A DNA stretch of 64,000 bases. It comes from Dictyostelium discoideum. Lineage: Eukaryota. Each line of letters opens with the position of its first letter. Positions within the stretch are counted from its first letter, which is position 1. The notes beneath the pieces are model-generated. The model saw nothing but the letters and a program-made list of their open reading frames with translations, had not been told where the DNA came from and did no database searches. Location of the stretch: NCBI GenBank assembly GCA_000004695.1, contig CM000152.2, positions 4,128,001 through 4,192,000 on the forward strand, read 5' to 3'. Positions 48,225 through 61,627 of this stretch are shown here, piece after piece. Position numbers and translations under genes: made by a program.

Positions 48225-49722
48225 ATGAGTATTTTCTATCAATATCACTTAAGTGTTTTAAAAGGAACAAATCCAGAAGCCAAAAATAAAAAAGAAACTG
48301 ATAAAATTGAAAGTATTACAAAAAATTTCATTCTTGGAACTGTTGATGGAAAACAAGTATTACAAAAAAATGGTGAGTATGGTTTTTGAAAAAACAAAAA
48401 AAAAAAAAAAAAAAAAATTTTTAGTTTCCATTTTTCTAATTAATTAATTTTATTTTTATTTTTATTTTTGTTTATATTTATTATTTTTTATTTAATTTTT
48501 ATTTTTTTTTAAATAAATAGTTGCAGGTACATTTAGAATTGTTCCAAAAGAGTCTGAGAAAAATGCAATTTTAAGAGGTAACCATATTGTAGGTGGTGAA
48601 CATTTAAGTAAAACTAGACTCGTCGATAGTTTAAAGGGTCACTTTTGGGCATCAAAAATTCAAGATGTTGAAGCTTTTTTAGGTAAATGTTCAGAATGTT
48701 CATCAATTTATCCACTTAAAGATAAAAAAGAAGATGATGAAGATAAAGAAGAAAAGAAAGAGAAAAAAGATAAAAAAGAAAAGAAGGATGATAAAGAAGA
48801 TAAAGAGGATAAAGAAGAGAAAAAAGATAAAGACGAGAAAAAAAAGAAATCATCAAAGAAATCAAAAGAACCAAGTGATAATGAAACTGAAGAGGAAGAA
48901 GAAGAAGAAGAAGAGGAACCAGAAAAAAAACCAACTAAAAGCAGATCAAGATCATCTTTAGCCGCTGCAACAAAAACTGTAGCTAAAACACCAACTAGAT
49001 CAAAATCATCACTTAAAGAAAATGAAACTAAAGAAAAAGAAACCAAAGAAACCAAAGAAAAAGAAGCTAAAGAAAAAGAAGCTAAAGAAAAAGAAGCTAA
49101 AGAAAAAGAAACCAAAGAAAATGAAACAAAAGAAAAACCAAAAGGTAAAGGAAAAGAAACAAAAGAAAAAGAAAAAGAAAAAGAAAAAGAAAAAGAAAAA
49201 GAAAAAGAAAAAGAAAAAGAAAAAGAAAAGGAAAAGGAAAAGGAAAAGGAAAAAGAAAAAGAAAAAGAAAAAGAAAAGGAAAAGGAAAAAGAAAAGGAAA
49301 AAGAAAAAGAAAAACTAAAGGAAAAAGAAAAAGAAAAAGAAAAAGAAGCATCAGAGGGATCAGATTCAGATTCAGAAACTAAAGAATCTGGTAAAAAGAG
49401 AAAATCACCATCAACAACAGCATCAAAAAAGAAAGCAAAGGTCACAGCCTCTCGTTCAAATGTTACTAATAACACCAAAGAAGAGAGTGGTTCTTCAAAT
49501 GATACTGATGCTTCCTCAGCATCCGATAGTACTGCTCCAGAAGCATCCACTACCACCACCACTACCGAACCAAAGAAATCAATTCCAATGCCATCAAAAT
49601 CTGCTGTCAAATCATCAGCAAAGGTTCAACCAGAACAAAAATTCGGTGATGTTTCAATCACTGAATTAAAATCTGCCTTAGCTGTCATCACAAAAGTTAT
49701 CGAAGCCATGGAAAAGAAATAA
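48225..49722 (+). CDS. Hypothetical protein with a globular N-terminal domain of about 110 aa followed by a long (KE)n / KEKE-repeat acidic-basic region
   Basis: join(48225..48372,48521..49722). The start is the second ATG (48225). The first ATG at 48221 is in another frame and terminates after 22 codons. Donor AAT G|GTGAGT, acceptor aaatAG at 48520. A ttgcAG three nucleotides downstream is an in-frame alternative. The N-terminal domain reads ..GTFRIVPKESEKNAILRGNHIVGGEHLSKTRLVDSLKGHFWASKIQDVEAFLGKCSECSSIYP. It is followed by about 60 KE dipeptides, SDSDSE, and ends ...ELKSALAVITKVIEAMEKK*. Confidence 0.6.
49141..49332. repeat. (GAAAAA/GAAAAG)n hexanucleotide repeat encoding (KE)n
   Basis: Direct reading. 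It also creates the spurious antisense 300-aa (SF)n ORF 48708..49610. Confidence 0.95.
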
Positions 49723-50220
49723 ATAATTATAATTAATAATTAACGACAATATTAAAAACTACAAAAAAAAAAAAAAAAACCAGAAAAAAAAAAAAGAAAT
49801 AAAATAAAAAAAAAAAAATGTAAAGTTAAATCCTTTATTCACCAGCAATCCATATCGAAAAAAATCTTATTTATTTATATATTTTATTTTTATTTTAATT
49901 TTTTTTTTTTTTTTTTTTTTTGTAGTTTTGGAAATTAAAAAAAGATTTTTAAAAATCGTGATTGAAATTAATCTTGTTTTTTGGGTTTGTGGAAAAATAA
50001 AATAAAAAAAAAGAATAGTTGCGAAAATAAAAAAAGGAATTTGAGGAATTGTTTAATCTAAATAGAAAGATTTAAAGTTTTTACCAAAAATAACAACCCC
50101 TTCTTACCAATTTTGATTTTAATTTATTTCATTTATAATTTTTTTTTTTTTTTAGTTATGTTTAATTTTTTTTCTTATAATCTTTAATTTTTTTATTTTT
50201 TTTATAAATAAAAAAACTAC

Positions 50221-50252
<32 letters not shown>

Positions 50253-50285
50253 ATTTTTTATTATCCAAAGCGAGTTTTAATAAAA

Positions 50286-50320
<35 letters not shown>

Positions 50321-50378
50321 AAATTAAATTAAATTAAAAAAAAAAAAAAAAGAATCAATTAATTAAATAGTAATCATA

Positions 50379-51137
50379 ATGTTATTTAATCAATATGTAT
50401 TTAAATATAAACAAGGATTTTATGGTCATAGGGAGTATGATTCAGTTTATTCAATAGCGTTGATTGATAGTTTATCATTACAAGAATTTATTTTTATAGT
50501 TAATAATTTAAATTATAAAATGCCTTATTATCTCTCAATTTTAAATAGTATTGCTTTATTTTTAATTTTCCCAATTAATATATTTTTATTTATATTCCAT
50601 CATAATTCTTGGATACAAACTTTTTTTTTATTATTTTTAATAGTTTTTTCTATTTTTTTATTTTCTATTAATATTTTCGAATTATATTTAGTAAGATTTT
50701 AATTCTTTTTTCTTTCTTTAAATATATAATATTTACCTTTTTTTTTTTTTTTTTTTTTATTACAAATTTTTTTTTTTTATTAATAGCCTAAAAAGAGAAT
50801 AATTACATTTATAGAAGAATTAAATAATGAATATTCAAATAGATTAATTTCATTTCATATTAATCAAGAAGAGGACATTGTTTTATTATATCCATTACCA
50901 GATCATTTTTATAAAAATGTTCCTTTCCCTTTTTTCCAAATACATCAACCAATTCAACAAGATCAAAATCAACAATTACAGGAACCATTACCTGGTAAAC
51001 AATACCAAGAGCAACAAAAACATGAAACATATACTTCAATTGATTTTCAACCAATTATTGAAACAAATCAATATTCCGAGCCATTGTTATCAGAAATTGA
51101 AGAATATACTCCAATAGATTTAAAAGAACAAATTTAA
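50379..51137 (+). CDS. Hypothetical two-exon protein (about 220 aa) with a two-TM hydrophobic N-terminus and a Q/P-rich tail
   Basis: join(50379..50690,50787..51137). Donor TTA|GTAAGA, acceptor taatAG. Exon 2 is GC-richer and open to TAA (…[22 protein letters not shown]). No family recognised. Confidence 0.45.
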
Positions 51138-51326
51138 AAAGTGAAATTTATAAAATAGGATTTGAACCTATTCCATAACAAACTAGATCTTAAAAATTTT
51201 GAAAAAAAAAAAGATAGTTATCTTTTTTAACTATTAAACATACCCAAATAAAATAGATTATCTTATATATTAAAATTATTTTTCTATTTTTTGTTTTTAT
51301 TTTTAATTTAAATAATTATGTTTTAT

Positions 51327-52254
51327 TTATAATAATTTAATGAAATCAAAAGTTTGAACATCATTAGTATTGGTGATAGATTTGAAAGTGATAACAATGT
51401 TACCAGATTCGAATGACCATGACCAATAGCCACTTAAATTAGCATCGTGTTTAATAACGATAGTATGATTTGAAGTTACTTCTTGAACTGCTTCTAAAAT
51501 CATTTCATCTGCACAACGTTTTGAAAGATTTGCTGCTACTTTTTCAACGATACCAGCGAAGATATGACCGAAACTATTCTTTAAATCGTCAGCAACTTTT
51601 GGATAAACAGATTCTAATGATGATTCATCGATTGACCAATCTGATGATGATTTTAATGCTTTTTTAACTGATGATAAATTATCTTTCATTTTTTGTTCGT
51701 TTGTTTTAATATTTAAACGAGTCATTAATGAATAAACACCTTGAGTTTGAATAATTGTTTCTAATTTAAATGTGTTAACATCATTTGTGTTACATATCTT
51801 TGGACGGAATAAAATTTGACAATCACCATTTTCAAATTGATATTTCCAATATGATGATAACTTTTCATCAGCACAAACAAAAACAAATTTTTTATTTGGA
51901 ACTGCAGCTAAGAATGCTTCTTTGATTAAAGGATCTGCACCTACTTTAACCATGTTTTTAGCAAGATTACCAACAACATCTTTATAAAATATACTACCAC
52001 AACTATTTGTAACCCAAGAATCATTACATTTTGCAATAATATCTTCGAAATCAAATTCGATGGCAAATGGTTCCCCTAATGATTTTTCAATTAAGGCTAG
52101 ATTTGTTTTTAAAGATTCTTCATTATCTTTTAATGATTTTCTATAACAAATTGAATTTTTATATTAGTATTTATTTATATTAGGTATTGGTTTTTAATTA
52201 AACTTATTTTTTTAATTTAAATAATAAATACCTTGAAGTTAAAGCGAGAGGCAT
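51327..52254 (-). CDS. Copy 1 of a tandemly repeated gene encoding a 278-aa protein with two internal homologous repeats (unknown family)
   Basis: join(complement(51327..52140,52232..52254)). Exon 1 is ATGCCTCTCGCTTTAACTTCAAG (MPLALTS), with donor GTATTT, a 91-nt intron and acceptor ttatAG. Exon 2 reads KSLKDNEESLKTNLALIEKSLGEPFAIEFDFEDIIAKC..MVKVGADPLIKEAFLAAVP...FDFIKLL*. The internal repeat pairs SSYWKYQFENGDCQILFRPKICNTNDVNTFKLETI with SGYWSWSFESGNIVITFKSITNTNDVQTFDFIKL. Confidence 0.7.
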
Positions 52255-52318
52255 TTTAAAATTTTATTAGTATTTATATTATTTTTTTAAAAAAAAAAAA
52301 GAATTTATTATTTATAGT

Positions 52319-52354
52319 ATGTTTTGATTGAATGATTTGAAAAGAATAAAACAT
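52319..52354. promoter_or_regulatory. Conserved upstream element of array copy 1: atgttttgattgaatgatttgaaaagaataaaacat, with a 7-nt inverted repeat ATGTTTT...AAAACAT
   Basis: The element lies 65-100 nt 5' of the ATG. Near-identical elements sit at the same distance in copies 2 (55107..55142), 3 (57933..57967) and 4 (58261..58295, opposite strand). Confidence 0.35.
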
Positions 52355-52653
52355 TTTGTATTTATACTAAAATAAATTGGAAATAAAATTAATAATTTGA
52401 TTTTAAAAAAAAAAATAGAAAAAAATTAGATTCGGTGGTAAGAAATAATTTGAAAAAAAGATATTTTTATTAATTGGAATGAAAAAAAAAAAAATTTAAA
52501 AAAAAAAAAAAATTTTTAAACAAATATCTTAAGATTTTTTTTTTTTTTTCAAAAAGGAATTATAAATTATTTATTTAAATGTACAACAACTTAATTTAAA
52601 TAGTTTAAAATAGTTTTATATTATTAAATGAATGGTATTTTTAGATAAACAGT

Positions 52654-52940
52654 TTAAAGGTCAACATGAGCATATACTGCTAATATTGGATGGATAATAA
52701 CTAATGCATCAAGGGTTAAAAGAGCAGCATTATTATTAGATTGAGAAGTTCCAACAAAATGAGTTCCTGAAATTTGATTCTTTTGAGATGCACTTTGGAT
52801 ATTAGCAATTGAATTTAATGATTCTATTAGGTTTTTTAATTATTATTATTTTTTTTTTAAAACAATGTTAATTCTTAATTTTTTTTTTTTTTTTTTTTAT
52901 TTTTTTTTTTTTTTTTTTTTTATAACTTACTGAATAACAT
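52654..52940 (-). CDS. Small gene A (59 codons, 10-nt micro-exon 1): MLFKSLNSIANIQSASQKNQISGTHFVGTSQSNNNAALLTLDALVIIHPILAVYAHVDL
   Basis: join(complement(52654..52823,52931..52940)). Exon 1 is ATG TTA TTC A with donor GTAAGT, and the acceptor is cctaatAG. It belongs to an HssA/2C/7E-like small-protein family and forms an inverted pair with small gene B. Confidence 0.55.
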
Positions 52941-53556
52941 TTTAGATTTTTAACAATTTAATACAAGTGTTTGATTATTTTTAATGATTAAAAAAAATAT
53001 TTTTTATTCATTTTATAGTTTTTTTTTTTTAATAATATTATTGTATTTTAAAATTATTATTAAAAGATTTCATATAATTTAATAATGAAAAAATAACCAA
53101 GTGATCAATTTTGATCAGCTTTTGAATCAATTATCTATTCTAATCAGTTAGAATTTATTTATTAAAAATCACAAAATCTGTTATTTAAATTTTGTGGTAT
53201 ATTAATTAATAAAAAAAAAAAAAAGAAAAAAGAAAATTGTAAAAATAAAATTAAACACATTTTAATAAAACCTTTAATGTATTTAAATTCTATTTTTACA
53301 AAAAAATTTAACATCGTTTGTATTAGTGATTGAGATGGCAATTTTTTAAATTGACCATAATGGACATTTAAGAAAAATGTGAATTAAAACAATATTATTT
53401 TTGTTATTGCCAATTAATATTTTTTTTTTTTTTTTTTTTATCTATTAACACAAAAAAATAACAGATTTTGGGGTTTTTTTTTAAAATTTTAAAGTTTTAT
53501 TAATAAAATGATTGGAGATTAAAGTAACTTTTAAAAAATAATAAGTTTATTTATTT

Positions 53557-53588
<32 letters not shown>

Positions 53589-53681
53589 AATAATAATATC
53601 AATAATAAAAAAAACTATAAAATAAAAATTTTATTTTTTTAATTTAATCATTAAAATTAATTAAAATATTAAAAATTTAAA

Positions 53682-53955
53682 ATGTTATTCAGTAAGTTTA
53701 ATAAAAATTATAAAATTTGTAATATTTTTAATATTGAAAACAATTTAATATTAATTATATTAAAAAAATTATAAAAATTATTTAGAATCATTAAACTCAA
53801 TTGCCAATATCCAGAATTCATCTCAAAAGAATCAAATTTCAGGAACTCAATTAATTGGAACTTCTCAATCAAATAATAATGCTGCTCTTTTAACCCTTGA
53901 TGCATTAGTTATTATTCATCCAATATTAGCAGTATATGCTCATGTTGACCTTTAA
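53682..53955 (+). CDS. Small gene B (59 codons): MLFKSLNSIANIQNSSQKNQISGTQLIGTSQSNNNAALLTLDALVIIHPILAVYAHVDL
   Basis: join(53682..53691,53786..53955). Same structure as small gene A, inverted relative to it. The 0.73-kb spacer 52941..53681 lies between their 5' ends. Confidence 0.55.
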
Positions 53956-54116
53956 ACTGTTTTATTAAAAATATTAAAACTATTATAAAATAATTTGTTG
54001 TATTTTTAAATAAATAACTAATTTAATAAATTTTTAAAATTTCTTTTTCTATAAATTTAATCATTAAATTAAAAATAAAAAAATAGAAAAAAATATTTAT
54101 TTATTTAATGTTTTAT

Positions 54117-55047
54117 TTATAACAATTTAATGAAATCAAAAGTTTGAACGTCATTGGTATTGGTAATAGATTTGAAAGTGATAACAATGTTACCAGATTC
54201 GAATGACCATGACCAATAGCCACTTAAGTTAGCATCGTGTTTAATAACGATTGTATGATTTGAAGTTACTTCTTGAACTGCTTCTAAAATCATTTCGTCT
54301 GCACAACGTTTTGAAAGATTGGCTGCTACTTTTTCAACGATACCAGCAAAGATATGACCGAAACTATTCTTTAAATCGTCTGCGACTTTTGGATAAACAG
54401 ATTCTAATGATGATTCATCGATTGACCAATCTGATGATGATTTTAATGCTTTTTTAACTGATGATAAATTATCTTTCATTTTTTGTTCGTTTGTTTTAAT
54501 ATTTAAACGAGTCATTAATGAATAAACACCTTGAGTTTGAATAATTGTTTCTAATTTAAATGTGTTAACATCATTCGTGTTACATATCTTTGGACGGAAC
54601 AAAATTTGACAATCACCATTTTCAAATTGATATTTCCAATATGATGATAACTTTTCATCAGCACAAACAAAAACAAATTTTTTATTTGGAACTGCAGCTA
54701 AGAATGCTTCTTTGATTAATGGATCTGCACCTACTTTAACCATGTTTTTAGCAAGATTACCAACAACATCTTTATAAAATATACTACCACAACTATTTGT
54801 AACCCAAGAATCATTACATTTTGCAATAATATCTTCGAAATCAAATTCAATTGTAAATGTCTCACCTAATGATTTTTCAATTAAGGCTAAATTTGTTTTT
54901 AAAGATTCTTCATTATCTTTTAATGATTTTCTATAATAAATTATATATTTAAATTAGTATTTATTTATATTAAGGCATTGGTTTTTTAATACCTTATTTA
55001 GTTTTAAAACTAAATAATAAATACCTTGAAGTTAAAGCGAGAGGCAT
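54117..55047 (-). CDS. Copy 2 of the tandemly repeated 278-aa gene
   Basis: join(complement(54117..54930,55025..55047)). The protein is identical to copy 1 across the 208-aa ORF (ORF track). Confidence 0.7.
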
Positions 55048-55475
55048 TTTTAAAATTTGATTGTTATTTATTTTATTTAAAAAAAAAAGAATTTGTTATT
55101 TAAAATATATTTTGATTGAATGATTTGAAAAGAATAAAACATTTTGTATTTATACTAAAATAAATTGGAAAAAAAATTAATAATTTGTAGAAAAATAGAA
55201 AAAAAAAAGATTTGATAGTAAGAAATAATTTAAAACAAGATATTTTTAAAAATTGGAATGAAAAAAAAAAATCTAACAAAGATCTTTCATCAAAAAAAAA
55301 AAAAATAAAAAATAAAAAATAAAAAAAAAATAAAAATTTTTAAACAAATATCTGAAGAGGTTTTCTTTTTCTTTTTTTTTTCCCCAAAGGGAATAAATTT
55401 TTATTTAAATGTACAACAACTTAATTTTAATAGTTTTAAATTATTAAATGAAAATGGTATTTTTAGATAAACAGT

Positions 55476-55732
55476 TTAAAGGTCAACATGAGCATATACT
55501 GCTAATATTGGATGAATAATAACTAATGCATCAAGGGTTAAAAGAGCAGCATTATTATTTGATTGAGAAGTTCCAATTAATTGAGTTCCTAAAATTTGAT
55601 TCTTTTGAGATACACTTTGGACATTTGCAATTGAGTTTAATGATTCTATTAAGTTTTTTATAATTTTTTAAAGGTTAGTTTTAAATTGTTTTCAATATTA
55701 ATAATTTTATTATTTAACTTACTGAATAACAT
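55476..55732 (-). CDS. Small gene C (59 codons): MLFKSLNSIANVQSVSQKNQILGTQLIGTSQS...
   Basis: join(complement(55476..55645,55723..55732)). A paralogue of small genes A and B. It carries the TQLIG variant found in copy B. Confidence 0.5.
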
Positions 55733-56499
55733 TTTAGATTTTTAATATTTTTATACAATTTATTAATTTTAATAATTAAATTTAATAAAAAAATTTTATT
55801 TATAGTTTTTTTAATTGATATTATTATTTTTTTGTTTTTTTTTATTTTTTTTTTTTTTTTTTTAACAAATAAACAACCTTATTACTTTTTAAAAGTCGCT
55901 CTAATCTCCAATCATTTTATTAATAAAACTTTAAAATTTTAAAAAAATAAAAAAAAACCCAAAATCTGTTATTTTTTTTTGTGTTAATAGATAAATAAAA
56001 AAAAAAAATAAAAAAAATAAAAAAATAATAATAATTGGCAATAACAAAAATAATATTGTTTTTATTCACATTTTTCTAAAATGTCCATTATGGTCAATTT
56101 AAACAATTGCCATCTCAAACAATAATAAAAATGATGTTCAATTTTTTTCTATAAATACATTAAAGGTGTTATAAAAATGTGTTTAATTTTGTTGTTACCA
56201 TTATTTTATCTTTTTTTTTTTTTTTTTTTTTTTTTTGAATTAATTACCACAAAATTTATATAACGTGTTATGTGGTTTTTAATAAAATTTTTTTACTGAT
56301 TAATAGATAATTGATTCAGATAGCTGATCAAAATTGATCACTTGGTAAATTTTTCATTAAAAAAAATTATATGAAATTTTTTTAAAATAAATTTAAAATA
56401 CAATAATATTATTAAAAAAAAAACTATAAATGAATAAAAAAAAATTTTTTAATCATTAAAAATAATCAAACACTTGTATTAAATTTTTAAAAATCTAAA

Positions 56500-56768
56500 A
56501 TGTTATTCAGTAAGTTATAAAAAAAAAAAAAAAAAAAAAAAAAACTACAAAAAATTAACATTGTTTTAAAAAAAAAAATAATATAAAAAACCTAATAGAA
56601 TCATTAAATTCAATTGCTAATATCCAAAGTGCATCTCAAAAGAATCAAATTTCAGGAACTCAATTAGTTGGAACTTCTCAATCAAATAATAATGCTGCTC
56701 TTTTAACCCTTGATGCATTAGTTATTATTCATCCAATATTAGCAGTATATGCTCATGTTGACCTTTAA
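56500..56768 (+). CDS. Small gene D (59 codons): MLFKSLNSIANIQSASQKNQISGTQLVGTSQSNNNAALLTLDALVIIHPILAVYAHVDL
   Basis: join(56500..56509,56599..56768). It carries the QSAS variant found in copy A. Confidence 0.55.
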
Positions 56769-56949
56769 ACTGTTTAATTAATAATTTCAAAACTATTTTA
56801 AAAAATAATTTGTAGTATATTTAAATAAATAATTAATTTAAAAATTTCATTTTCTTTTATTTTAATTTAATAATTAAAATAAAATCTAAAACTTAATTTT
56901 TAAATAAAAAAAAGAAAAGATTATTTATTTTATTAATTTGATATTTTAT

Positions 56950-57867
56950 TTATAACAATTTTATGAAATCAAAAGTTTGAACGTCATTAGTATTGGTGAT
57001 AGATTTGAAGGTGATAACAATGTTACCAGATTCGAATGACCATGACCAATGACCATTTAAGTTAGCATCGTGTTTAATAACGATTGTATGTTTTGAAGTT
57101 ACTTCTTGAACTGCTTCTAAAATCATTTCGTCTGCACAACGTTTTGAAAGATTGGCTGCTACTTTTTCAACGATACCAGCAAAGATATGACCGAAACTAT
57201 TCTTTAAATCGTCTGCGACTTTTGGATAAACAGACTCTAATGATGATTCATCGATTGACCAATCTGATGATGATTTTAATGCTTTTTTAACTGATGATAA
57301 ATTATCTTTCATTTTTTGTTCGTTTGTTTTAATATTTAAACGAGTCATTAATGAATAAACACCTTGAGTTGGAATAATTGTTTCTAATTTAAATGTGTTA
57401 ACATCATTTGTGTTACAAATCTTTGGACGGAATAAAATTTGACAATCACCATTTTCAAATTGATATTTCCAATATGATGATAACTTTTCATCAGCACAAA
57501 CAAAAACAAATTTTTTATTTGGAACTGCAGCTAAGAATGCTTCTTTGATTAAAGGATCTGCACCTACTTTAACCATGTTTTTAGCAAGATTACCAACAAC
57601 ATCTTTATAAAATATACTACCACAACTATTTGTAACCCAAGAATCATTACATTTTGCAATAATATCTTCGAAATCAAATTCAATTGCAAATGGCTCACCT
57701 AATGATTTTTCAATTAAGGCTAAATTTGTTTTTAAAGATTCTTCATTATCTTTTAATGATTTTCTATAATAAATTATAATATAAGTATAAATTAATATAT
57801 ATTTTTATTAATCTTTTTAATAACATTTAATTATAATAAAATACCTTGAAGTTAAAGAGAGTGGCAT
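56950..57867 (-). CDS. Copy 3 of the tandemly repeated 278-aa gene (variants: MPLSLT.., IIPTQ, TSKHT, NLNGHW)
   Basis: join(complement(56950..57763,57845..57867)). Confidence 0.7.
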
Positions 57868-58362
57868 TTTTAATTATTTTTTTAATTATTTTAAATAAAA
57901 AGAGTCACAAAAAAGAGTTTATTATTTATAATATGTTTTGATTGAATGGTTTGAAAAGAAAAAAATATTTTGTATTTATACAAAAAAAAAGAAAGTAAAA
58001 AAAAAACTTTAAAATAAAATTAGAAAAAAAAAAGATTGGATAATCAGAAATAAAAAAAAAAATAAAAATAAAAAAAAAACTAAGATATGTCAAAATAAAA
58101 AAATTAGAAAAAAAAAAGATTTTTTAAAATTTCTGATATATTCTTCCAAAATAAAAAAATATCTTTACTGGTTTTTTTTCATTTTATTTCTAAAAACTTA
58201 ATCTTTTTTTTTTCTAATTAAAACTATTATTATATTTATTATTATTTTTTTTTTAATATAAATAAACAAAATGTTTTATTGTTTCAAATCATTAAATCAA
58301 AACATAAAAAATAGTAAACACCTTTTTTTTAAAAAAAATAAACAAAAATAATTAATTTCAAA
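57868..58362. promoter_or_regulatory. 495-bp divergent intergenic region between head-to-head array copies 3 (-) and 4 (+)
   Basis: It contains two copies of the conserved ATGTTTTG..CAAAACAT element, one per strand (57933..57967 and 58261..58295). Confidence 0.35.
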
Positions 58363-59263
58363 ATGCCTCTCGCTTTAACATCAAGGTATATATTTTTTTT
58401 TTTTTTTTTTTTTTTTTAAATTGTTAATATTAATAAATTTTAATTATAGAAAATCATTAAAAGATAATGAAGAATCTTTAAAAACAAATTTAGCCTTAAT
58501 TGAAAAATCGTTAGGTGAGCCATTTGCAATTGAATTTGATTTCGAAGATATTATTGCAAAATGTAATGATTCTTGGGTTACAAATAGTTGTGGTAGTATA
58601 TTTTATAAAGATGTTGTTGGTAATCTTGCTAAAAACATGGTTAAAGTAGGTGCAGATCCATTAATCAAAGAAGCATTCTTAGCTGCAGTTCCAAATAAAA
58701 AATTTGTTTTTGTTTGTGCTGATGAAAAGTTATCATCATATTGGAAATATCAATTTGAAAATGGTGATTGTCAAATTTTGTTCCGTCCAAAGATATGTAA
58801 CACGAATGATGTTAACACATTTAAATTAGAAACAATTATTCCAACTCAAGGTGTTTATTCATTAATGACTCGTTTAAATATTAAAACAAACGAACAAAAA
58901 ATGAAAGATAATTTATCATCAGTTAAAAAAGCATTAAAATCATCATCAGATTGGTCAATCGATGAATCATCATTAGAATCTGTTTATCCAAAAGTTGCTG
59001 ACGATTTAAAGAATAGTTTCGGTCATATCTTCGCTGGTATCGTTGAAAAAGTAGCAGCAAATCTTTCAAAACGTTGTGCAGATGAAATGATTTTAGAAGC
59101 AGTTCAAGAAGTAACTTCAAATCATACTATCGTTATTAAACACGATGCTAATTTAAGTGGCTATTGGTCATGGTCATTCGAATCTGGTAACATTGTTATC
59201 ACCTTTAAATCAATCACCAATACAAATGATGTTCAAACCTTTGATTTCATTAAATTGTTATAA
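58363..59263 (+). CDS. Copy 4 of the repeated 278-aa gene, in inverted orientation
   Basis: join(58363..58385,58450..59263). Exon 1 is MPLALTS, with donor AG|GTATAT and acceptor attatAG. Exon 2 matches ORF 58421..59263 (IIPTQ variant). Confidence 0.75.
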
Positions 59264-59405
59264 ATAATAATTCAAAATAAAAATAAATAAACTCATTTAA
59301 AAACTAACTATTAATTTATTTAAATTATTTATATTATTTATTATTTTCTTTTTATTTTTTTTTATTTTTTTTTTTTTTATTTTTTTTTTTTTTTTTGTTA
59401 ATTTA

Positions 59406-59472
59406 TTAATTCTTTTTAAATTTATTATTAAAGTTACTGTATTTAACTGATTTTGATTTTAATTTATCAGTG

Positions 59473-59510
<38 letters not shown>

Positions 59511-61627
59511 TGAATGATCGATAGATAAAGATGATGATTTTGTTGAAATAAATAAAAGTTTAAAGATACCTAAATAAATTGGTACTAAACCAAATATGAA
59601 AAAAGGGAAGAATAAGAAACCCCAATTATTTGAAGCTAAAATTATACCAATGAATAAATTTTTCCAACCTATTGACCAAAGTGCCCACCATTCGAATACT
59701 AAAAACGTTGGATGAGAAACCAAACAAATGATCATCCAAATTAATTTGACAAGTTTTGATTTAACTTTATTTTCCAATATAAAAGTTGTAAAATGTAATG
59801 TTGGTAATGATAAAACAATAAATAAACATGTAAATTGGTTATTTAACATCATACCCATTAATCCCAATAATGCATAATCTATAAAAAAAAAAAAAAATTA
59901 ATAATAAATATATAAATTATTTATATATAAATAAAATAAAACTTACATAATAATAAAATTGTTTGGGTACCATACCAATCATTTTTATTAAAAGTTGGAA
60001 AAGATATTGATAAAATTTTAGTTATATATTTTGAAATTGGTGATAAAATGAAAAAGTAAAATGAAATACACGCTAAAAAAAAAGTGAAAGAAAAGAAAAT
60101 GATTTGATTCTCTATTGAATTTGTAATTGATAATGTTGAGAATAGATTATTTAAAAGCTGTGATGATTTATATAAATTTGCAGGTTGTAAATCATTAGTT
60201 GGAATTAAATTAAAACTTGATAAAAACCAAGGTAACAATAAAATAGTTGAACAAAATAAAAGTATTGATAGAAACCATGGTAAAGATAATAGAATTCTAA
60301 TTGTAATATTCTCAATTGAAATAGAAATCGATATCAATTGTAAGAAAATCCCAACACTAAATACAATCACTGGTAACAATGCTTGACCCAAATCAATGAA
60401 AAACACAGCACCCGCCATCATATACCATCTATAACTTTGATGTAATTGTTCATCTGCATTATGTAAATGTCTAATAACAGTCTCCATTATTTTCCCCAAA
60501 TTAAAAAATGTTGTATTACTTAATGGTTCTTCATTAAATCTTTATTTTTTAAATAAAATAATAAAAGTTAATAATATATTATTAATTTATTTATTATTAT
60601 TATTATTTATTTAATTAATTATTACCTTTTAATATTTTTATGAATTTTATGTAATGGTGTATTTAAGAAATCAATATCCCAAACATTATGAGAATGGTCA
60701 GTACTGACACCAACTGAATTGATACCATATTGAGTGAATATTGCATGATTTGAACGTGGTAATGATAAAGCGGAATTCCACATGAAAATTAATAAACCAT
60801 AGAGTGAACCTTCAACAGCTTCTTGATCCATATGAGTGTTTATACCAGCTGGTATATCATTTAAGAATGATGTAGTGGTGATTACATTTAATATATCTAA
60901 ATTTGATAAACCACCTTTTAAACCCTCTGGGTACACTAAAATTCTCTCCATATTTTTATTACCAACCCTATCAATTGCAATTGCACCATAAATTTGACCT
61001 GCTCTTAATAATGTTTTTGATGAATAATTATTTTCTAAAGAATTTCCTTTCTGTTGTTGTTGTTGTTGTTGTTGTTGATGATCACCACCACCAGCAGTCC
61101 AACCAACTGGTTTAACACTATAGTAATCATTTAACCAAACTGATATACCTGAAATATCCATTGATGTACCACCATTAATTTCACCACCTTCACTTGTGAA
61201 AACATATATTATATCTCTTGCTTGCCATGATGTATTCTTTAAATACTCTGAAAATCCAATTAAAAATCCAACTGATCCTGCACTATGCCATTGATCAAAT
61301 GATGTTGTCAATACAAAATTCTCTGTACCTAATGATCTAATTGCTTTTGATATACCAATTACATTTACTCCTATCCTATCTATTAATTAAAATAATAATA
61401 ATAAATTAATATATTGAATATATTATATATATATATATATATATATACAACCACAATAACAAATCTTACTAAATGATGAATTAAAAAAATATAATTGAGT
61501 TTCTAAACCCAATTGATCTAATTGATATTTTATCCAATTTGCGCTATTTAATGCCTCATTTGAACCTAATGACCTATTCGGGAACTATATACACATATAA
61601 GAAATAATATATTAATTATAATTTGTT

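What the first reader, a model, noticed from the sequence alone, without database searches (positions are those of the whole stretch)
52654..56768. The 1.3-kb module between gene copies is bounded by inverted repeats and occurs in opposite orientation in consecutive tandem units. It is a candidate invertible (flip-flop) segment.
Unit 1 reads [small gene A (-) 52654-52940][spacer 52941-53681][small gene B (+) 53682-53955]. Unit 2 reads [C (-) 55476-55732][spacer][D (+) 56500-56768]. The unit-2 spacer is the reverse complement of the unit-1 spacer. For example 52941-53110, ttaatacaagtgtttgattattttt...accaagtgatcaattttgatcagc, equals rc of 56290-56499. Diagnostic substitutions agree with this: A matches D (QSAS) and B matches C (TQLIG, N/V-S). 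So the whole module is inverted between units. Inverted-repeat-mediated recombination is the simplest mechanism, as for plastid IR or 2-micron-type isomers. The IR arms extend about 60 bp beyond each small-gene stop.
Basis: seen in the sequence. Interest (0 to 1): 0.8.

Follow-up and report, generated by a model that had tools for sequence, protein, structure and literature searches.

The report
Old fixed inversion between inverted paralogues
In a tandem gene array on Dictyostelium discoideum chromosome 3, the interior of one head-to-head pair of tiny genes was flipped long ago by recombination between the two gene copies, and it has been inherited unchanged since, so it is an ordinary fixed structural variant and not an active genetic switch.

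Summary
The window is D. discoideum AX4 chromosome 3. The array reads G1(-), module 1, G2(-), module 2, G3(-), G4(+). G is a 278-aa orphan gene. Each module is a divergent pair of 59-aa orphan genes (DDB_G0281189/91 and DDB_G0281195/97). These form 233-234-nt inverted-repeat arms around about 0.9 kb.

The spacer of module 2 is the reverse complement of the spacer of module 1: 93% identity at aligned bases, against background identity in the forward orientation. Only the interior is inverted (spacer, first exons, introns and the 5' part of exon 2). The 3' flanks stay positional. The switch falls in the last ~100 nt of the coding sequence, which is 98-100% identical in all four copies. That is the signature of homologous exchange between the arms.

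The flip-flop reading is not supported. An independent long-read assembly of a sister lab strain shows both modules base-for-base identical and in the same orientation. A wild isolate ~4% diverged shows the same opposite-orientation pair at orthologous positions. The other five modules, in three further genomes of the discoideum clade, all carry the module-2 orientation. One old inversion explains everything. It swaps two near-identical paralogues together with their promoters, so it is probably neutral.

The parts
51327..52254 (-). G1 = DDB_G0281187, a 278-aa two-exon orphan gene and the distal tandem copy
   Evidence: Splice model. Exact protein match. Tandem spacing of 2790 and 2833 bp (D5-D7).
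52654..52940 (-). Small gene A = DDB_G0281189 (59 aa). Its interior is alpha-type (like D) and its 3' flank is R-type (like C).
52616..52848 (.). Left inverted-repeat arm of module 1. It covers exon 2 of A plus 38 bp past the stop.
   Evidence: (I6) and 36: 233 nt, 86% complementary to 53761-53993
52646..52754 (.). Left breakpoint interval of the inversion. It lies between the first positional site beyond the stop of A and the last inversion-type site in exon 2.
   Evidence: Site patterns. Segment identities. Narrowed to about 45 bp around the stop by diagnostic sites in ACTFIW (inference).
52941..53681 (.). Spacer 1, the shared 741-bp region between the two start codons. It is the reverse complement of spacer 2. 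It contains a short internal dyad, AAATAACAGATTTTG, about 215-245 bp upstream of each start codon.
   Evidence: (I16)
53682..53955 (+). Small gene B = DDB_G0281191 (59 aa). Its interior is beta-type (like C) and its 3' flank is L-type (like D).
53761..53993 (.). Right inverted-repeat arm of module 1
   Evidence: (I6)
53855..53963 (.). Right breakpoint interval of the inversion
54117..55047 (-). G2 = DDB_G0281193
55476..55732 (-). Small gene C = DDB_G0281195 (beta-type interior, R-type flank)
55733..56499 (.). Spacer 2 (767 bp). Its orientation is the one shared with all other genomes of the discoideum clade, so it is the ancestral one.
56500..56768 (+). Small gene D = DDB_G0281197 (alpha-type interior, L-type flank)
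55436..55669 (.). Left inverted-repeat arm of module 2
   Evidence: (I4), 36: 234 nt, 90% complementary to 56575-56808
56575..56808 (.). Right inverted-repeat arm of module 2
   Evidence: (I4)
56950..57867 (-). G3 = DDB_G0281199, the proximal tandem copy. It lies head to head with G4.
58363..59263 (+). G4 = DDB_G0281201, the inverted copy. With G3 it forms an 859-nt inverted repeat of 96% identity, 666 nt apart.
   Evidence: (I2)

Best explanation
This is a fixed, old inversion produced by homologous exchange between the two arms of an inverted gene duplication.

The locus is a tandem array of ~2.8-kb units. Each unit holds a head-to-head pair of 59-aa paralogues plus a 278-aa G gene. After the unit duplicated, the two small-gene copies of the distal module (module 1) paired and recombined within the last ~100 nt of their coding sequence. 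That tract is 98-100% identical in all four copies. The exchange turned round the 1.1-1.3 kb between the crossover points: the 5' part of both second exons, both introns, both first exons and the shared 741-bp promoter spacer.

The two gene bodies swapped places. Each kept its own promoter side and acquired the other's 3' flank. Coding capacity is unchanged, so the event is most likely neutral. The arrangement then passed by descent to AX4, to its sister lab strain and to a wild isolate ~4% diverged.

What is shown: the anatomy, the reversed interior, the positional flanks, the breakpoint intervals, and the conservation of orientation across genomes.

What is inferred: the recombination mechanism, neutrality, and that module 1 rather than module 2 is the derived state.
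For: (1) The interior is reversed. The spacers are 92.9% identical in reverse complement and at background in the forward orientation.

(2) Affinity switches cleanly along the arms. The 200 bp upstream of the start codon give A-D 90% and B-C 80%, against 60-62% for the other pairs. Exon 1 plus intron give 82% and 74%, against 60-71%. The first 70 nt of exon 2 give A-D 97%. The last 100 nt of exon 2 give 98-100% in all pairs. The 3' flank gives A-C 77% and B-D 81%, against 54-61%.

(3) It is not an artefact. L008, an independent long-read assembly, is collinear with window 61652-44095 at 99.83%. It has zero differences in 52654-56768.

(4) It is inherited. In ACTFIW (L007) the proximal module has the module-2 orientation and the distal module has the module-1 orientation. 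The full inter-G regions pair up as orthologues: M1 with Y at 94.7%, M2 with X at 94.2%. M1 and Y also share indels in both 3' flanks.

(5) The spacer tree groups (AX4_M1, FIW_Y) and (AX4_M2, FIR_M, FIW_X). ACTFIY is the outgroup and ACTFIZ forms a clade of its own. Quartet counts give 11 substitutions and 9 indel events for that grouping, against 6+0 and 2+2 for the alternatives. Bootstrap support is 72% and 90%.

(6) Polarity. ACTFIY (1 module), ACTFIZ (4 modules) and the M2 clade all place the alpha gene next to the L flank. Module 1 is therefore the derived state.

(7) Single-copy divergence next door is AX4-FIW 3.7%, AX4-FIR 4.1% and FIW-FIR 1.4%. The inversion therefore predates the AX4/(FIW,FIR) split, and ACTFIR lost the distal unit afterwards.
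Against: - No read-level data were available, so a minority of flipped molecules inside a culture cannot be excluded.
- Bootstrap support for orthology of the M1 and Y interiors is only 72%. Six sites group the modules by strain, which points to some exchange between modules or to parallel change.
- The strain names behind the assemblies (AX2-214, OT3A/CR116C, M4B/S6B) are inferred from PMC12745789. I did not read them from the records.
- Reciprocal crossover within module 1 cannot be told apart from a replication template switch between the arms. Nor can it be told apart from an antiparallel conversion tract copied from module 2.
Confidence: 0.8

Rival explanations
1. Active flip-flop segment. 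The arms recombine often enough, by homologous recombination or a dedicated recombinase, that both isomers coexist in a population, as with plastid inverted-repeat isomers or the 2-micron plasmid.
For: Inverted repeats bound the segment, and one inversion has certainly happened. Arms within a strain share strain-specific substitutions (ACTFIY L and R arms, ACTFIR L and R arms). The arms therefore do interact by gene conversion.
Against: - All 12 modules in six genomes fit a single event on the tree. Orientation is identical at orthologous positions in AX4, L008 and ACTFIW.
- The alpha/beta interiors and the L/R flanks keep a clean association, which repeated crossovers at varying points would blur.
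- The arms are short (233 nt) and 10-14% diverged. The uninterrupted identical tracts are at most about 100 nt.
- The only coding sequences in the module are the two small genes, apart from one 59-aa low-complexity ORF in the spacer. The small gene tested (B) and the G protein have no significant Pfam match, so no recombinase is evident.
- The inversion cannot change which promoter drives which gene.
Confidence: 0.05
2. The inverted orientation arose in one step with the tandem duplication, or by a non-reciprocal copy. One route is a replication template switch between the arms (fork stalling at the quasi-palindrome). The other is an antiparallel gene-conversion tract in which module 1 copied the interior of module 2 with A paired to D and B paired to C.
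For: Breakpoints inside the arms fit these routes as well as they fit a crossover. M1 and M2 interiors differ by 7% at aligned bases, rising to 10% in the multiple alignment. AX4 and ACTFIW orthologues differ by 5-8%. The inversion is therefore not much younger than the duplication.
Against: Nothing distinguishes these routes from a simple crossover in the present sequence. In ACTFIZ tandem duplication gave modules in direct orientation three times over, so duplication does not by itself invert the module.
Confidence: 0.13
3. Assembly artefact. The spacer of one module was mis-oriented in the AX4 reference because it lies between inverted repeats inside a tandem repeat.
For: Repeat-rich arrays are prone to misassembly. 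The ACTFIW contig does end inside the array.
Against: An independent de novo long-read assembly reproduces the whole 17.5 kb with 4 mismatches and 5 gaps, and none of these fall inside the modules. ACTFIW shows the same arrangement with about 5% sequence divergence. The two modules differ by 7% or more, so they are easy to tell apart.
Confidence: 0.01
4. A larger inversion with breakpoints in the oppositely oriented G genes (G4 against G1-G3) carried the module round with it.
For: G4 forms inverted repeats of 844-896 nt and 95-97% identity with G1-G3 (I1-I3). ACTFIZ has units on both sides of the centre.
Against: Such an event would invert the 3' flanks of the small genes together with the interior. 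The flanks are positional instead (A resembles C, B resembles D).
Confidence: 0.01

Closest known systems
Inversions by non-allelic homologous recombination between inverted paralogous repeats in nuclear chromosomes (for example the human FLNA-EMD inversion between 11-kb inverted repeats, the F8 intron-22 inversion, and spacer inversions in X/Y palindromes; recalled from my own knowledge)
   Same: The reversed interior lies between inverted paralogous copies. The breakpoints fall in the most identical tract of the arms. The flanks stay collinear. The arms show signs of gene conversion.
   Different: The scale is far smaller: 233-nt arms and a 1.1-1.3-kb interior. The arms are whole genes of a divergent pair, so the event merely swaps two paralogues. 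Across the six genomes examined it happened once, whereas FLNA-EMD and many human loci flanked by inverted repeats toggle recurrently.
Flip-flop isomerisation of plastid genomes, the yeast 2-micron plasmid (FLP/FRT) and herpesvirus genomes (recalled from my own knowledge)
   Same: A segment bounded by inverted repeats exists in two orientations somewhere in the data.
   Different: Those systems have long, essentially identical arms or a dedicated recombinase, and both isomers coexist in every population. Here the arms are 86-90% alike, no recombinase is present, and each position has one orientation in every genome.
Bacterial invertible promoter switches (fimS/FimBE, hin/H2) and shufflons (recalled from my own knowledge)
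   Same: A DNA segment of about 1 kb bounded by inverted repeats and carrying promoter sequence.
   Different: Those are site-specific systems with short inverted repeats and a recombinase next door. The promoter is re-aimed at a fixed gene. Here both genes move with their promoters, so nothing is switched.
Structural dynamics of the Dictyostelium tgrB1/tgrC1 locus (PMC12745789)
   Same: Same genus and the same genome set. A divergent gene pair sits in a region that evolves by duplication, intralocus recombination and inversion.
   Different: The tgrBC locus is described as a hypermutable hotspot with large gene gains and losses. This array changes mainly in copy number (1 to 4 modules) and shows a single small inversion.

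Membership tests
Fixed inversion by recombination between inverted paralogous repeats (NAHR type) | Interior reversed while the sequence outside the repeats stays collinear | tested here: met
   Spacer identity is 92.9% in reverse complement and at background in the forward orientation. The 3' flanks and the G genes are collinear.
Fixed inversion by recombination between inverted paralogous repeats (NAHR type) | Both breakpoints map inside the inverted-repeat arms, in a tract of high identity | tested here: met
   The switch from inversion-type to positional site patterns falls within 52646-52754 and 53855-53963. That tract is 98-100% identical in all copies.
Fixed inversion by recombination between inverted paralogous repeats (NAHR type) | An un-inverted state exists in related copies or outgroups, and the derived state is inherited by descent | tested here: met
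   The M2 clade, ACTFIY and the four ACTFIZ modules have the other orientation. AX4, L008 and ACTFIW share the inverted M1.
Homologous-recombination flip-flop (plastid inverted repeat / 2-micron type) | Long arms kept essentially identical | tested here: not met
   The arms are 233-234 nt and 86-90% complementary.
Homologous-recombination flip-flop (plastid inverted repeat / 2-micron type) | Both isomers present at the same position in a population | tested here: inconclusive
   Six assemblies show one orientation per orthologous position. An assembly is a consensus, however, and no reads could be examined.
Site-specific invertible switch (fim/hin type) | A recombinase gene in or next to the element | tested here: not met
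   The module holds only the two 59-aa genes plus one 59-aa low-complexity ORF. The small gene tested (B) and the G protein have no significant Pfam match. Neighbours in related loci are Gaa1 and a phosphodiesterase-family gene.
Site-specific invertible switch (fim/hin type) | Inversion reconnects a promoter to a different fixed gene | tested here: not met
   The breakpoints lie at the 3' ends of the coding sequences. Each gene body therefore moves with its own upstream region.

The most novel reading that the evidence does not exclude
The small-gene inverted repeat is a recurrent-inversion site. Besides the one fixed event, modules flip at a low but measurable rate in mitotic or sexual lineages, so natural D. 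discoideum populations are polymorphic for orientation. The array would then be a small, tractable eukaryotic model for how arm length and divergence set inversion and gene-conversion rates.
Probability: 0.08. Interest if true: 0.4.

Novelty: new member of a known kind. Interest (0 to 1): 0.15.

Why it matters
It matters little beyond local genome history. It is a clean, small example of an inversion whose breakpoints can be placed within about 100 bp (perhaps about 45 bp) of identical sequence inside inverted paralogues. It sits in an array that also shows copy-number change (1 to 4 modules), loss of a unit, a decaying gene copy and concerted evolution of the arms.

It is also a caution for scans. 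Opposite orientation of a segment flanked by inverted repeats in paralogous units is not evidence of switching. Comparison of orthologous positions in other genomes settles the matter quickly. Neither the small genes nor the G genes have a known function, and the inversion leaves their coding capacity intact.

Tried and rejected
- Rfam scan of 50000-60000 at E <= 1 found no RNA family, so there is no hidden RNA gene in the spacers.
- Pfam had nothing for the small protein. For G it gave only a chance-level hit (Herpes_UL35, E = 0.19).
- Full-text search for the six DDB_G identifiers found no paper.
- Three exact-product look-ups failed. These were the small protein P0025, the 208-aa exon-2 ORF of G2, and the spliced G2 protein given as letters. 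No short-read (Logan) contigs could therefore be recruited to look for alternative junctions.
- L003 (ACTFIW) and L004/L005 (D. dimigraforme) are other G-family loci without small genes. They were not used further.
- The exhaustive HMMER search with the small protein found one further 58-aa relative (P0058, 48% identity). It also found a 1868-aa protein built of repeats (P0057) that matched in 10 stretches. I read P0057's sequence as Ig-like repeats of a probably bacterial protein; its source was not returned. I treat that match as repeat-summed chance or compositional similarity, not homology.
- The idea of a larger inversion with breakpoints in the G genes was rejected because the flanks of the small genes are positional.
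Full report
**What the window is.** The region has about 20% G+C. The spliced product of small gene B is 100% identical to DDB_G0281191 of Dictyostelium discoideum AX4. A, C and D equal DDB_G0281189, DDB_G0281195 and DDB_G0281197. The larger repeated gene, which I call G, has 278 aa and two exons. Its four copies are G1 51327-52254(-), G2 54117-55047(-), G3 56950-57867(-) and G4 58363-59263(+). They equal DDB_G0281187, DDB_G0281193, DDB_G0281199 and DDB_G0281201. The window is therefore AX4 chromosome 3. Neither protein has a significant Pfam match. No paper in the library mentions these genes.

**Anatomy.** The array is G1(-), module 1, G2(-), module 2, G3(-), then G4(+) head to head with G3. 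The tandem period is 2790 and 2833 bp (D5-D7). Only four small-gene copies exist in the 64 kb. Each module is a divergent pair of small genes. Each gene has exon 1 = ATGTTATTCA, an intron of 77-107 nt and a 170-nt exon 2. Exon 2 plus about 40 bp of 3' flank form inverted-repeat arms of 233 nt (86%) in module 1 and 234 nt (90%) in module 2, about 0.9 kb apart.

**Checking the observation.** Spacer 1 (52941-53681) aligns to the reverse complement of spacer 2 (55733-56499) with 665 matches, 51 mismatches and 76 gap columns. That is 92.9% at aligned bases and 84% counting gaps. The forward alignment gives 64% counting gaps. Each spacer against its own reverse complement gives the same 64%. Shuffles give a mean of 59% and a maximum of 62%. 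The three-way alignment and ordered markers (m1, m2 and m3 on the + strand in module 1 and on the - strand in module 2) agree.

**Where the inversion ends.** I aligned the four arms in gene orientation. I scored each variable site as inversion-type (A=D, B=C), positional (A=C, B=D) or unit-type (A=B, C=D). I also measured pairwise identity by segment.

| Segment | A-D | B-C | Other pairs |
|---|---|---|---|
| 200 bp upstream of ATG | 90% | 80% | 60-62% |
| Exon 1 + intron | 82% | 74% | 60-71% |
| First 70 nt of exon 2 | 97% | 90% | 89-91% |
| Last 100 nt of exon 2 | 98% | 100% | 98-100% |
| 3' flank, +1 to +90 | 54% | 57% | A-C 77%, B-D 81%; A-B 59%, C-D 61% |

The interior is inverted and the outer ends of the arms are not. 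The exchange points lie in 52646-52754 and 53855-53963, the longest tract of identity between the arms. In ACTFIW, alpha/beta-diagnostic sites reach to about 40 nt before the stop. If the breakpoints are shared, the interval narrows to about 45 bp around the stop codon. This pattern is what homologous exchange between inverted repeats leaves behind. It rules out a larger inversion with breakpoints in the G genes, because that would have carried the flanks along.

**Other genomes.** Exact-product look-ups gave the orthologous locus in five more assemblies. I infer that these assemblies are the Nanopore+Illumina de novo set of PMC12745789. The match of accessions to strain names is also my inference.

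- L008 (GCA_054883475.1, a 6.43-Mb chromosome, inferred AX2-214) is collinear with window 61652-44095 at 99.83%. It has 4 mismatches and 5 gaps, none within 52654-56768. The arrangement is not an assembly artefact, and it did not change between the two lab lineages.
- L007 (ACTFIW) has the same four G copies. Its proximal module has the module-2 orientation and its distal module has the module-1 orientation. The inter-G regions pair as orthologues: M1 with Y at 94.7%, M2 with X at 94.2%, and cross pairs at 89-90%.
- L001 (ACTFIR) and L002 (ACTFIY) have a single module in the module-2 orientation.
- L009 (ACTFIZ) has five G copies and four modules. All four have the alpha gene next to the L flank, including two consecutive tandem units in direct orientation.

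**History.** The adjacent single-copy Gaa1 region gives the tree (((FIW,FIR) 1.4%, AX4 3.7-4.1%), FIY about 5.8%), D. citrinum about 11%. The spacer tree groups (AX4_M1, FIW_Y) and (AX4_M2, FIR_M, FIW_X). ACTFIY lies outside and the ACTFIZ modules form their own clade. The quartet (AX4_M1, FIW_Y | AX4_M2, FIR_M) is backed by 11 substitutions and 9 indel events, against 6+0 and 2+2 for the alternatives. Bootstrap support is 72% and 90%. M1 and Y also share unit-specific indels in both 3' flanks.

The simplest history has three steps. The unit duplicated. The interior of the distal module inverted once, before AX4 split from the FIW/FIR lineage. ACTFIR later lost the distal unit. All 12 modules seen fit this single event. 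Under free flipping the orientations would be expected to vary independently of the tree.

**Mechanism and consequence.** The exchange points sit at the 3' ends of the coding sequences, so each gene body moves with its own half of the shared promoter spacer. All four copies keep intact 59-aa reading frames. The inversion swaps which paralogue faces the 3' end of the upstream G and which faces the promoter of the downstream G, and it exchanges their 3' flanks. I infer that it is neutral.

The arms do interact. Both arms of ACTFIY, and both arms of ACTFIR, share strain-specific substitutions, which indicates gene conversion. Arms of 233 nt that are 10-14% diverged, with identical tracts of at most about 100 nt, are poor substrates for frequent reciprocal exchange; this last point rests on established knowledge of homologous recombination and was not tested here. 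I cannot separate a crossover within module 1 from a replication template switch, or from an antiparallel conversion tract copied from module 2.

**Comparison with known systems.** It works like the inversions between inverted low-copy repeats known from human and other nuclear genomes, at miniature scale. It does not meet the defining features of plastid or 2-micron flip-flop systems, which need long identical arms and coexisting isomers. It also does not meet those of site-specific invertible switches, which need a recombinase and a promoter re-aimed at a fixed gene.

**Verdict.** An origin by recombination between the inverted repeats is supported. Active flip-flop is not supported. This is an ordinary, fixed structural variant in a lineage-specific orphan-gene array, and interest is low. 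The one open point is read-level heterogeneity, which needs long reads or junction PCR.

Noticed in passing
window 56915-57773 and 58440-59298: G3 and G4 form an 859-nt inverted repeat of 96% identity around a 666-nt head-to-head spacer (I2). This makes the whole array a lopsided palindrome. The repeat is longer and more similar than the small-gene arms, so it is a better substrate for inversion of its spacer.
   Followed up: partly
L009 1183-13736 (ACTFIZ, GCA_054859235.1): This genome has five G copies (two on the - strand, three on the +) and four modules. One module sits in the head-to-head centre and one on the minus arm. All four are in the ancestral orientation. Module copy number ranges from 1 to 4 across the discoideum clade.
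   Followed up: partly
L007 8485-9548 and 13987-14160 (ACTFIW, GCA_054859355.1): The proximal module has lost about 230 bp, including exon 1 of its alpha gene and markers m1 and m2, so that copy is probably a pseudogene. The contig ends 173 bp into a third module, whose arm carries apparent frameshifts. The true copy number in this isolate is unresolved.
   Followed up: no
L006 7521-10902 and L010 7625-12642 (D. citrinum): D. citrinum has only one small gene. It has an alpha-like upstream region and intron. It lies between the heads of the divergent G genes and points toward G(+). There is no inverted partner. The inverted small-gene pair therefore seems to have arisen in the discoideum clade.
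   Followed up: partly
window 53172-53186(-), 53456-53470(+), 55960-55974(-): The 15-mer AAATAACAGATTTTG lies about 210-245 bp upstream of small-gene start codons, in the same orientation relative to the gene. It recurs with at most one mismatch in the modules of the other discoideum-clade genomes and is absent from the other loci fetched. It is a candidate shared promoter element.
   Followed up: partly
small protein, window 53788-53952: An exhaustive HMMER search found only one further relative, a 58-aa protein (P0058, 48% identity). It also gave a repeat-summed match (E = 1e-12, 10 stretches) to P0057, a 1868-aa protein built of repeats that I read as Ig-like and probably bacterial. The shared pattern is roughly D-x-L-A/V-x-x-x-H-P-I-x-A-V-Y. 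This is probably chance, but the small protein's C-terminal half resembles the last strands of such repeats.
   Followed up: no
G-family paralogues outside the window: The 278-aa G family has further clusters in AX4: DDB_G0277415, DDB_G0277417, DDB_G0277421, DDB_G0277423 and DDB_G0277425 on the 8.48-Mb chromosome, and DDB_G0281613 and DDB_G0281617 on chromosome 3. Relatives exist down to Acytostelium at 42% identity. The protein looks like an internal duplication: SSYWKYQFENGDCQILF...NTNDVNTFKL is echoed by SGYWSWSFESGNIVITF...NTNDVQTFDF.
   Followed up: no
window 48708-49610: This is a long low-complexity coding-like stretch (SF dipeptide repeats on one strand, K/E-rich on the other) with repeat periods of 9 and 12 nt (D1). 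It lies under a called gene of 431-450 residues in the related loci.
   Followed up: no
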